3,405 nucleotides of DNA from Enterobacteria phage M: sequence record JX625144. One strand, given 5' to 3'. Position 1 is the first letter of the stretch; each line of letters starts with the position of its first letter. Shown here in pieces: positions 1 to 3,405 of the stretch. The notes under the pieces are model-generated. The model was not told the DNA's origin, ran no database searches, and saw only the letters and a program-made list of their open reading frames with translations. A program made the translations under genes and the position numbers.

Positions 1-89
1 GAGGTGGGACGACCTCTCGGTCGTCCTATCTACACATAATGTGTAGGTCCCGTTAGGGCCTATGCTCCCTCACAATGGAGGTTCCATAG
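1..89 (+). other. 5' untranslated leader with two stem-loops: an 8-bp stem 7-14/19-26 (GGACGACC/GGUCGUCC, loop UCUC) and a 7-bp stem 30-36/40-46 (CUACACA/UGUGUAG, loop UAA)
   Basis: Perfect inverted repeats read directly from the sequence. The G-rich 5' end followed immediately by a stable hairpin is the usual levivirus 5' terminus (template for minus-strand 3' end). GGAGG at 76-80 lies 9 nt upstream of the first ATG. Confidence 0.6.

Positions 90-1741: not shown

Positions 1742-1745
<4 letters not shown>
1728..1745 (+). promoter_or_regulatory. Putative translational operator hairpin spanning the replicase start codon (coat-protein binding site)
   Basis: ACAU(1728-1731) pairs with AUGU(1742-1745), A1732 is unpaired (bulge), GG(1733-1734) pairs with CC(1740-1741), loop AAUAA (1735-1739). 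The replicase AUG (1742-1744) sits in the 3' arm. The architecture mirrors the MS2 operator (ACAUGAGGAUUACCCAUGU: lower stem, bulged A, GG/CC, A-rich loop). Confidence 0.6.
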
Positions 1746-3304
<1,559 letters not shown>

Positions 3305-3405
3305 CACCAAACTCGCCCGCAAGGGTGCCCCTAACGGGGGGGGTCTCATCACTCCTGATGAGATTTTGTTGTTACGGTAGATTGCTATGCTACCGTAACA
3401 CCCCA
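3305..3405 (+). other. 3' untranslated region with stem-loops: a 5-bp stem with GCAA (GNRA) tetraloop at 3314-3327, an 8-bp stem 3344-3351/3356-3363 (loop CUCC), and a terminal 10-bp stem 3371-3380/3390-3399 (9-nt loop), followed by ACCCCA-3'
   Basis: Inverted repeats read directly: GUUACGGUAG/CUACCGUAAC, UCUCAUCA/UGAUGAGA, and CGCCC/GGGUG with one G-U pair. A 3' terminal hairpin followed by unpaired ...CCCA is the conserved levivirus 3' end recognised by the replicase. A G8 run at 3336-3343 also lies in this region. Confidence 0.7.

What the first reader, a model, noticed from the sequence alone, without database searches (positions are those of the whole stretch)
3305..3405. Highly structured 3' UTR: GNRA tetraloop hairpin, G8 tract, and terminal hairpin plus CCCA
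The 101-nt 3' UTR contains three clean hairpins and an uninterrupted G8 run (3336-3343) flanked upstream by CCCC (3328-3331). The terminal 10-bp hairpin plus single-stranded ACCCCA is the expected replicase initiation site. The GCAA tetraloop and the G-run could take part in long-range interactions with internal replicase-binding sites, or the G-run could in part be a sequencing homopolymer artefact. A G8 homopolymer is unusual in a compact RNA genome.
Basis: seen in the sequence. Interest (0 to 1): 0.35.

Follow-up and report, generated by a model that had tools for sequence, protein, structure and literature searches.

The report
Phage M 3' replication domain
This is the folded 3' end of the small RNA phage M, published in 2012; its run of eight G's is best explained as two four-base-pair helices lying end to end, one of which probably pairs with the terminal CCCC where copying starts.

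Summary
The window is the complete 3405-nt genome of IncM-plasmid-specific RNA phage M. Its replicase is identical to AFU61981.1. Every detail I checked matches Rumnieks & Tars 2012 (PMC3561173).

The reported sequence features are all real. These are the GCAA hairpin, the G8 tract at 3336-3343, the CCCC at 3328-3331, a 7-bp hairpin, a 10-bp terminal hairpin and the ACCCCA tail.

The interpretation needs three corrections.
1. There are four hairpins, not three (U4, U3, U2, U1). CCCC-UAAC-GGGG is hairpin U3.
2. G8 is the 3' arm of U3 plus the 5' arm of the closing helix "ld IX". In that helix, GGGG 3340-3343 pairs with the terminal CCCC 3401-3404. The 3' end is therefore predicted to be paired, not free.
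3. G8 is not an artefact. Two independent metagenome assemblies about 10% diverged from M carry exactly G8. More distant lineages have a hairpin followed by GGGG at the same place.

U2 shows compensatory changes. U4, U3 and G8 are almost invariant in sequence.

This architecture is already published and is shared with phages Hgal1, C-1 and PRR1. It is an ordinary, known feature of low interest.

The parts
3263..3313 (+). R1, the extended hairpin at the end of the replicase gene. It contains the stop codon TAA 3302-3304. The apical 8 bp are 3280-3287 paired with 3292-3299, with loop UAAG. Its 3' arm is the first 9 nt of the UTR (3305-3313).
   Evidence: The MFE is the same in the 200-nt and 400-nt contexts. 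A3296 is G in the relatives, which gives a U.G pair and keeps the pairing.
3314..3327 (+). U4: a 5-bp hairpin, CGCCC/GGGUG, capped by the GNRA tetraloop GCAA (3319-3322).
   Evidence: Pair probability is about 0.8 in every context tested. G3315.U3326 becomes A-U in L001, L002 and L005. The loop is GUAA in L003, which is still GNRA.
3328..3339 (+). U3: CCCC (3328-3331), loop UAAC, GGGG (3336-3339). The GGGG arm is the first half of the G8 run.
   Evidence: Present in the MFE, with probability 0.25-0.7 depending on context. It is invariant in the M-like contigs. Hairpins at the analogous position have stems that differ but still pair: L013 CCCUC GAAA GAGGG, L014 CCUCC GAAA GGAGG, L015 CCUGC GAGA GCAGG, and PRR1 CCC UCAC GGG.
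3340..3343 (+). 5' arm of ld IX: GGGG, the second half of the G8 run. It is predicted to pair with C3401-3404 and so close the 3' domain.
   Evidence: Present in the MFE. Probability is 0.62 in register plus 0.19 shifted by one base in the local ensemble. GGGG directly follows the U3-like hairpin in L013, L014 and L015. Analogous helices with different sequences occur in Hgal1, C-1, PRR1, MS2 and Qbeta. The helix is published as ld IX (PMC3561173).
3344..3363 (+). U2: a 7-bp hairpin, UCUCAUC/GAUGAGA, with loop ACUCCU.
   Evidence: Pair probability is about 1.0 in all contexts. Half of its positions (10 of 20) vary among M, L001 and L002, yet 100% of cells stay paired and two pairs show changes on both sides.
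3364..3369 (+). Unpaired linker UUUUGU between U2 and U1. It occupies the place of hairpin V in other leviviruses.
   Evidence: Unpaired in the MFE and invariant in L001 and L002. Its equivalence to UAUAAACA (PRR1), UAUA (Hgal1) and UUAAU (C-1) is stated in PMC3561173 and is visible.
3370..3400 (+). U1: the terminal hairpin. It has 10 bp (3371-3380 with 3390-3399), a possible U3370-A3400 pair, and loop AUUGCUAUG (3381-3389) carrying the conserved GCU core.
   Evidence: Pair probability is about 1.0 in all contexts. A GCU core is present in the U1 loops of PRR1, Hgal1, C-1, MS2 and Qbeta.
3401..3405 (+). The 3' terminus, CCCC-A. The CCCC is the 3' arm of ld IX. The last C is the first templating base and the final A is not copied.
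   Evidence: One search gives A3405 as 99% unpaired and C3401-3404 as about 80% paired locally. The initiation rule (penultimate C, untemplated A) comes from Qbeta replicase structures reviewed in PMC4200798. Applying it to phage M is an inference.
2168..2172 (+). AGCAA in the replicase gene, the published candidate partner of U1-loop UUGCU (3382-3386) in a long-range pseudoknot.
   Evidence: Proposed in PMC3561173. It is conserved in all five M-like contigs. However, the genome holds 10 complements of 5 nt or more to this loop, and the candidate sites in other phages are not at the same alignment column. The test is inconclusive.

Best explanation
The region is the 3'-terminal replication domain of Enterobacteria phage M, a levivirus of the family Fiersviridae. 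From the end of the replicase gene the RNA folds into an unbroken series of helices: R1 (which holds the stop codon), U4 (GCAA tetraloop) and U3 (CCCC-UAAC-GGGG). A four-base-pair closing helix, ld IX, follows. In it GGGG 3340-3343 pairs with the terminal CCCC 3401-3404. This helix encloses U2, the unpaired linker UUUUGU and the terminal hairpin U1.

The G8 run is the 3' arm of U3 followed directly by the 5' arm of ld IX. Its length is set by two C4 tracts that each need four G's.

By analogy with Qbeta and MS2, the replicase starts minus-strand synthesis de novo with GTP opposite the last C, and the final A is added without a template. In the resting fold that C is paired, so ld IX has to open for initiation. 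This also limits premature or unspecific copying. U1 is the most conserved module. Its GCU-containing loop is the candidate for a long-range contact with the replicase-coding region. Its complement forms the 5' hairpin of the minus strand.

Shown here: the identity of the genome, the helices, their conservation or covariation, and the reality of G8.
Inferred: ld IX in vivo, the need for it to open, and every protein contact.
For: Identity:
- The replicase is 100% identical to AFU61981.1/YP_007111575.1 of Enterobacteria phage M, carried on a 3405-nt contig.
- IMG/VR holds an identical 3405-nt contig.
- The gene order maturation protein, coat, replicase is confirmed by Pfam.
- Genome length, the UUG-started lysis ORF at 2991-3104, the U1 loop AUUGCUAUG, the linker UUUUGU and AGCAA about 1215 nt upstream all match PMC3561173.

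Fold:
- The MFE reproduces U4, U3, ld IX, U2 and U1 with z = -5.5.
- U1 and U2 have probability about 1.0 and U4 about 0.8 in contexts from 101 nt to 1664 nt.
- In the local context the terminal C's pair with G3340-3343 at 0.62, and at 0.19 shifted by one base.

Comparative evidence:
- M-like contigs at 89-90% nucleotide identity keep G8 exactly.
- U2 has two pairs changed on both sides and 100% of cells paired, against 31-58% when the partners are slid.
- Positions 3305-3343 have 1 variable site in 39, against 0.153 genome-wide and 0.377 at third codon positions.
- The next lineages, at about 50% replicase identity, have a hairpin whose stem differs but still pairs, followed by GGGG. This gives G7, G6 and G6 runs.
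- In Hgal1 and C-1, U3 abuts the 5' arm of ld IX with no linker.
- Helices pairing the 3'-terminal residues with an upstream UTR stretch are predicted in every phage compared, with arms that differ in sequence: Hgal1 UGGUGG/CCACCA, C-1 UGG-U/A-CCA (the MFE extends the 5' arm to UGGUUGG), PRR1 GGAU/AUCC, MS2 GGG/CCC, Qbeta UGGGAGG/CCUCCCA.

Mechanism: initiation at the penultimate C and untemplated A are taken from PMC4200798. The involvement of Hfq in Qbeta minus-strand synthesis is from PMC10610835.
Against: - ld IX is only 4 bp. Its predicted probability falls to about 0.4 with 100-300 nt of upstream context and to about 0 with 800 nt or more, where other G-rich partners compete.
- No M-like contig reaches the 3' arm of U1 or the terminal CCCC. 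ld IX and U1 therefore have no covariation test among close relatives.
- U3 and the G8 run never vary, so they say nothing for or against pairing within the M group.
- No probing or replication data exist for phage M.
- The roles of the replicase, host factors and the maturation protein are transferred from Qbeta and MS2.
Confidence: 0.8

Rival explanations
1. The terminal ACCCCA is constitutively single-stranded as a ready initiation site. The G8 run, the GCAA loop or both are free to make long-range contacts with internal replicase-binding regions.
For: In folds with 800 nt or more of context the ld IX pairing disappears and the terminal C's are 30-65% unpaired or find other partners. Conserved C4 tracts exist elsewhere, at 109-112 and 1191-1194, and there is a C6 at 319-324 in phage M. 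Long-range contacts between the 3' UTR and internal sites are established for Qbeta (cited in PMC6847885).
Against: Local folds of all six phages compared pair the terminal C's with an upstream G-rich stretch of the same UTR. The sequences of those stretches differ but stay complementary. GGGG sits directly after the U3-like hairpin in three further lineages. The C6 tract is CTCCCC in L002 and L003. Global MFE predictions over more than 800 nt are unreliable for a 4-bp helix. The published model of phage M pairs the terminus.
Confidence: 0.12
2. The G8 run is wholly or partly a sequencing or cloning homopolymer artefact.
For: Homopolymers are error-prone, and G8 is the longest run in the genome. 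The contig L003 breaks exactly at the start of the run.
Against: Two independent short-read assemblies from different projects carry exactly eight G's in the same context. They are ENA ERZ781412 (NODE_2196, coverage 91.7 in its name) and JGI 3300066765, at 89-90% identity to M and to each other. Eight is also the number required by two C4 partners.
Confidence: 0.02
3. The G-run nucleates an RNA G-quadruplex that regulates replication or packaging.
For: There is a G8 run with a GGG tract 11 nt upstream (3323-3325).
Against: Four G-tracts are needed. Folding with quadruplex energies enabled returns the same hairpin structure and no quadruplex. The flanking C4 tracts provide strong Watson-Crick competitors.
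Confidence: 0.02

Closest known systems
The 3' UTR of phage M itself, as described by Rumnieks & Tars 2012 (BMC Microbiol 12:277, PMC3561173, Fig. 3C)
   Same: It is the same molecule. That paper describes four hairpins U4, U3, U2 and U1, closure by ld IX, the U1 loop AUUGCUAUG, the linker UUUUGU and the candidate pseudoknot partner AGCAA about 1215 nt upstream. My folds reproduce this model.
   Different: Nothing structural differs. The additions here come from metagenomic relatives that did not exist in 2012: G8 confirmed independently, U2 covariation, GNRA retained in U4, and near-invariance of U4-U3-G8. The text I read does not mention the G8 run as such.
The 3' domains of the plasmid-specific leviviruses Hgal1 (IncH), C-1 (IncC) and PRR1 (IncP)
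   Same: [quoted passage not shown] U3 abuts the 5' arm of ld IX with no linker in Hgal1 and C-1. The U1 loop carries a GCU core.
   Different: The ld IX arms have other sequences: UGGUGG/CCACCA in Hgal1, UGG-U/A-CCA (MFE 5' arm UGGUUGG) in C-1, and GGAU/AUCC in PRR1. None of them therefore forms a long G run. Their linkers are A-rich, whereas the linker in M has no A. Replicase identity to M is only 39-48%.
The Qbeta and MS2 3'-terminal domains
   Same: They show the same logic. The terminal CCC is paired with upstream G's of the UTR; the predicted probability is about 1.0 in Qbeta and 0.57 in MS2. Both have a terminal hairpin with a UGCUU-type loop. Initiation is de novo at the penultimate C and the 3' A is untemplated. 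Minus-strand synthesis depends on long-range RNA contacts and, in Qbeta, is modulated by Hfq.
   Different: MS2 has seven hairpins and an A-rich hairpin V. Qbeta and SP have three. M has four and no hairpin V. None of the functional experiments has been done on M.

Membership tests
Levivirus (Fiersviridae) 3'-terminal replication domain | It lies between the replicase stop codon and the 3' end of a genome with the gene order maturation protein, coat, replicase. | tested here: met
   ORFs at 90-1277, 1305-1706 and 1742-3304 match Pfam Phage_mat-A, Levi_coat and RNA_replicase_B. The replicase is identical to that of phage M.
Levivirus (Fiersviridae) 3'-terminal replication domain | The genome ends in CC(C)A-3'. 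| tested here: met
   The window ends ...ACACCCCA. PRR1, Hgal1, C-1, MS2 and Qbeta end in CCA or CCCA.
Levivirus (Fiersviridae) 3'-terminal replication domain | Helix ld IX pairs the extreme 3' terminus with a stretch shortly after the replicase stop codon and so closes the domain. | tested here: inconclusive
   It is predicted in the MFE and is the majority state of the local ensemble. Equivalent helices with different arm sequences are predicted in five other phages. GGGG is conserved after U3 in three further lineages. However, the helix is lost in long-context folds, no close relative covers the 3' arm, and there are no probing data.
Levivirus (Fiersviridae) 3'-terminal replication domain | There is a stable terminal hairpin U1 whose loop holds the conserved (U/C)GCU(U) motif. 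| tested here: met
   A 10-bp stem with probability about 1.0. The loop AUUGCUAUG contains UGCU. Loops of the other phages are ACGCUUC, UCGCUUU, CCGCUUU, CUGCUUG and CUGCUUU.
Levivirus (Fiersviridae) 3'-terminal replication domain | The U1 loop forms a long-range pseudoknot with the replicase-coding region about 1.2 kb upstream (demonstrated only for Qbeta). | tested here: inconclusive
   AGCAA 2168-2172 is complementary to UUGCU and is conserved in the M-like contigs. But there are 10 complements of 5 nt or more in the genome. The sites in Hgal1 and MS2 lie 5-6 codons upstream in the alignment, and the Qbeta site lies elsewhere.
PRR1 / C-1 / Hgal1 / M subgroup of 3' UTR folds (PMC3561173) | [quoted passage not shown] | tested here: met
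   Folds of M, Hgal1 and C-1 show exactly this. PRR1 shows it as a sub-optimal state with probability about 0.4.
GNRA tetraloop hairpin | A four-nucleotide loop G-N-R-A closed by a Watson-Crick pair. | tested here: met
   GCAA 3319-3322 is closed by C3318-G3323. The variant GUAA in L003 keeps the GNRA pattern.
GNRA tetraloop hairpin | The loop docks into a tetraloop receptor, a tertiary contact. | not testable with these tools
   No tool here predicts tertiary structure or receptors, and no cryo-EM model of phage M RNA is known to me.
RNA G-quadruplex | Four G-tracts able to stack into at least two tetrads and to out-compete duplex alternatives. | tested here: not met
   Folding with quadruplex energies enabled gives the same hairpin MFE and no quadruplex.
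Any curated Rfam family | A covariance-model match. | tested here: not met
   No match with E <= 1 anywhere in the window. I found no match, which may simply mean the levivirus 3' domain is not curated in Rfam 15.

The most novel reading that the evidence does not exclude
The strictly conserved G8 may be a register-slipping switch rather than two static helices. Two C4 tracts (3328-3331 and 3401-3404) share one homopolymeric partner, so the 3' CCCC can slide along the run or be displaced by U3. The ensemble already shows a one-base-shifted register at 0.19. Such a switch would tune how often the initiation site is exposed. It could also explain why U4-U3-G8 is conserved at the sequence level (1 variable site in 39) while U2 drifts freely.
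Probability: 0.1. Interest if true: 0.35.

Novelty: already known. Interest (0 to 1): 0.1.

Why it matters
It matters little beyond tidying the record. The 3' domain of phage M was published in 2012 and fits the general levivirus plan.

There are three small gains.
- M-like phages now exist in metagenomes as at least three lineages about 10% apart. This gives the first comparative support for parts of the published fold: covariation in U2, retention of GNRA in U4, and invariance of U3 and G8.
- The G8 run is real and has a simple structural explanation.
- The contrast between a hypervariable but always-paired U2 and a nearly invariant U4-U3-G8 block points to where a protein or tertiary contact is most likely to lie. 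That is useful to anyone designing phage M replicons or studying how the replicase recognises its template.

Tried and rejected
- Megablast of the whole window against the phage collection found nothing. The record appears to be absent there. Identity was instead established through the exact protein look-up.
- Rfam at E <= 1 gave no family.
- The pattern AAGGGTGCCCCTAACGGG returned only the window itself from IMG/VR (L006). In the metagenome collection it returned two unrelated chance matches, L007 and L008.
- Extra look-ups with coat proteins, meant to find longer M-like contigs, gave nothing new.
- A profile-guided scan of IMG/VR returned 80 levivirus contigs. None ends in CCA, so all are truncated at the 3' end and cannot test ld IX.
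- The U1-loop pseudoknot test was inconclusive. Five-nucleotide complements are too frequent (10 in the genome), and candidate sites in other phages do not line up at one alignment column.
- The G-quadruplex reading was rejected.
- Long-range pairing of G8 with the C6 tract at 319-324 was rejected as a conserved feature, because the relatives read CTCCCC there.
- Klovins et al. 1998 (PMC1369672) is not held in the library. Statements about ld IX opening and Hfq-independent Qbeta mutants therefore rest on my own knowledge and on the reviews cited.

Full report
**What the window is**

The 3405-nt window carries three ORFs on the + strand, at 90-1277, 1305-1706 and 1742-3304. They match Pfam Phage_mat-A, Levi_coat and RNA_replicase_B. 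This is a complete ssRNA levivirus genome.

The replicase sequence is identical to AFU61981.1/YP_007111575.1, "replicase beta subunit [Enterobacteria phage M]", recorded on a 3405-nt contig. IMG/VR holds an identical 3405-nt contig.

Every specific detail in the phage M genome paper (Rumnieks & Tars 2012, PMC3561173) is found in the window:
- the genome length of 3405 nt;
- a UUG-initiated lysis ORF at 2991-3104, with GAGG upstream;
- the U1 loop AUUGCUAUG;
- the unpaired stretch UUUUGU;
- AGCAA about 1215 nt upstream of the loop (2168-2172).

The phage BLAST collection does not contain this record. The nearest replicases there are PRR1 and PRRlime at 48% identity.

**Checking the observation**

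- stop codon at 3302-3304, so the UTR is 3305-3405;
- the GCAA hairpin at 3314-3327;
- CCCC at 3328-3331;
- G8 at 3336-3343;
- a 7-bp hairpin at 3344-3363;
- a 10-bp hairpin at 3371-3399;
- the tail ACCCCA.

The 101 nt fold at -45.1 kcal/mol, against -28.2 +/- 3.1 for dinucleotide shuffles (z = -5.5, 0 of 200 shuffles as stable). A G8 run is expected 0.07 times per genome on both strands together.

The minimum-energy structure has four hairpins plus a closing helix:
- U4, 3314-3327;
- U3, CCCC 3328-3331, loop UAAC, GGGG 3336-3339;
- the closing helix, GGGG 3340-3343 paired with CCCC 3401-3404;
- U2 (3344-3363), the linker 3364-3369 and U1 (3370-3400), all enclosed by that helix.

This is exactly the published model of U4, U3, ld IX, U2 and U1.

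G8 is therefore 4 + 4: the 3' arm of U3 lying directly against the 5' arm of ld IX. The terminal CCCC is predicted to be paired. In the local ensemble C3401-3404 are about 80% paired, 0.62 in register and 0.19 shifted by one G, and only A3405 is free.

The first nine UTR nucleotides are not free either. They are the 3' arm of the extended R1 hairpin, 3263-3313, which contains the stop codon. R1, U4, U3, ld IX and U2 follow one another with no unpaired nucleotides between them.

**Robustness of the fold**

| Element | Predicted pair probability across contexts of 101, 201, 401, 801 and 1664 nt |
|---|---|
| U1, U2 | about 1.0 in all contexts |
| U4 | about 0.8 in all contexts |
| U3 | 0.25 to 0.7 |
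| ld IX | 0.6 locally, about 0.4 with 100-300 nt more, about 0 with 800 nt or more |

A 4-bp helix that closes a multiloop is at the limit of what thermodynamic prediction can decide. The case for ld IX therefore rests mainly on comparison with other phages.

**Close relatives, which are new since 2012**

The 90%-identity cluster of the replicase contains five metagenomic members. Their contigs are L001 to L005. They are 89-90% identical to M at the nucleotide level and fall into two groups, L001/L003 and L002/L004/L005. The two groups are also about 10% apart from each other.

The findings from these contigs are:
- L001 (ENA ERZ781412) and L002 (JGI 3300066765) extend through the G run, and both read CCCCTAACGGGGGGGGT, which is exactly G8. 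The homopolymer-artefact reading is therefore refuted.
- L005 ends in a Nextera adapter after GGG, and L003 stops just before the run.
- In U2, 10 of 20 positions vary among the three lineages, yet all cells remain standard pairs. Two pairs change on both sides (U-A to C-G and C-G to U-A). When the partners are slid by one to three columns, only 31-58% of cells are paired.
- In U4, G3315.U3326 becomes A-U. In L003 the loop GCAA becomes GUAA, which is still GNRA.
- The block 3305-3343 (R1 arm, U4, U3 and G8) has 1 variable site in 39. The genome-wide fraction is 0.153 and the fraction at third codon positions is 0.377; the binomial P is 0.012 against the genome mean.
- The linker and the start of U1 have 0 variable sites in 12.

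U2 is therefore constrained only as a structure. U4, U3 and G8 are constrained as a sequence.

None of these contigs reaches the 3' arm of U1 or the terminus.

**More distant relatives**

The next lineages have replicase identities of 48-52%: L013, L014 and L015. Each has a hairpin directly followed by GGGG at the same place.

| Contig | Hairpin, then GGGG | Resulting G run |
|---|---|---|
| L013 | CCCUC GAAA GAGGG, GGGG | G7 |
| L014 | CCUCC GAAA GGAGG, GGGG | G6 |
| L015 | CCUGC GAGA GCAGG, GGGG | G6 |

The hairpin stem differs between lineages but stays complementary, while the following GGGG is constant. That is what is expected if GGGG is the partner of a CCCC-A terminus.

Isolates with complete ends show the same design with other sequences.

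| Phage | Terminal pairing (5' arm / 3' arm) | Note |
|---|---|---|
| Hgal1 | UGGUGG / CCACCA | Encloses U2, linker UAUA and U1 |
| C-1 | UGG-U / A-CCA (the MFE extends the 5' arm to UGGUUGG) | Linker UUAAU |
| PRR1 | GGAU / AUCC | Probability about 0.4, not in the MFE |
| MS2 | GGG / CCC | Probability 0.57 |
| Qbeta | UGGGAGG / CCUCCCA | Probability about 1.0 |

Eighty further IMG/VR relatives were fetched. All lack a CCA end and could not be used.

**How it most likely works**

The following is established for Qbeta and MS2 and is inferred for M.
- The replicase initiates de novo with GTP opposite the penultimate C, and the terminal A is added without a template (PMC4200798).
- Minus-strand synthesis on the plus strand depends on internal sites and long-range RNA contacts with the 3' domain (PMC6847885).
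- In Qbeta, minus-strand synthesis is modulated by Hfq (PMC10610835).

In M the initiating C's are held in ld IX in the resting fold, so the helix must open for initiation. G8 supplies both that helix and the neighbouring U3.

U1 is the conserved module, and its loop shares a GCU core with all the phages compared. Its proposed pseudoknot partner, AGCAA 2168-2172, is conserved in the M-like contigs. The test is weak, though. The genome has 10 complements of 5 nt or more to the loop, and the candidate sites in Hgal1, MS2, C-1 and Qbeta do not share one alignment column.

From my own knowledge of MS2 and Qbeta virion cryo-EM structures, the 3'-terminal stem-loop also contacts the maturation protein. 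The review read here says only that the last capsid-proximal stem-loop contacts the maturation protein and that the 3' end lies near it.

**Rejected readings**

- No G-quadruplex is predicted.
- The C6 tract at 319-324, the obvious long-range partner for G8, reads CTCCCC in the relatives.
- There is no Rfam match.

**Verdict**

It is, however, the already published 3' domain of phage M, an ordinary member of the levivirus 3'-domain class and of the PRR1 / C-1 / Hgal1 / M subgroup.

Interest is low. The only modestly new material is the comparative support from metagenomic M-like phages.

Noticed in passing
window 3263-3313: The replicase stop codon (3302-3304) sits inside a long R1 hairpin whose 3' arm is the first 9 nt of the UTR. 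R1, U4, U3, ld IX and U2 abut with no unpaired linker, which suggests one continuous stack of helices.
   Followed up: partly
window 3305-3375 compared with L001 and L002: There is a sharp contrast in variability among three lineages about 10% apart. U4-U3-G8 has 1 variable site in 39, the linker and start of U1 have 0 in 12, and U2 has 10 in 20 while always staying paired. The invariant block may be a protein or tertiary contact site.
   Followed up: partly
window 1-30: The genome begins GAGGUGGGACGACC..., not with the GGG usual for leviviruses. The related contig L013 begins GGGAACC. The M-like contigs start at window positions 10-14, so they cannot confirm the 5' terminus.
   Followed up: no
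window 2991-3104: A UUG-initiated 37-codon ORF lies inside the replicase gene in another frame. It is the experimentally verified lysis gene of phage M (PMC3561173). It is below the 40-aa cut-off I set for the ORF list.
   Followed up: partly
L005 1681-1700; L003 3' end: The Logan contig L005 ends in the Nextera adapter CTGTCTCTTATACACATCT immediately after the first G's of the run. L003 stops exactly before the run. Public assemblies of these phages are systematically truncated at the structured 3' end.
   Followed up: partly
L013 3397-3486, L014 3161-3223, L015 3671-3706: Uncultured lineages at about 50% replicase identity to M carry GNRA-capped hairpins (GAAA, GAAA, GAGA) directly followed by GGGG. 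In M the hairpin at that position has a UAAC loop, and the GNRA loop is on the preceding hairpin.
   Followed up: partly
window 2126-2210 and homologous regions: Complements to the U1 loops of Hgal1 (AAAGCGA), MS2 (CAAGCA) and C-1 (AGCGG) fall at the same replicase alignment column. This is 5-6 codons upstream of the AGCAA in M. It may hint at a conserved pseudoknot site that has shifted in M, or it may be chance.
   Followed up: partly
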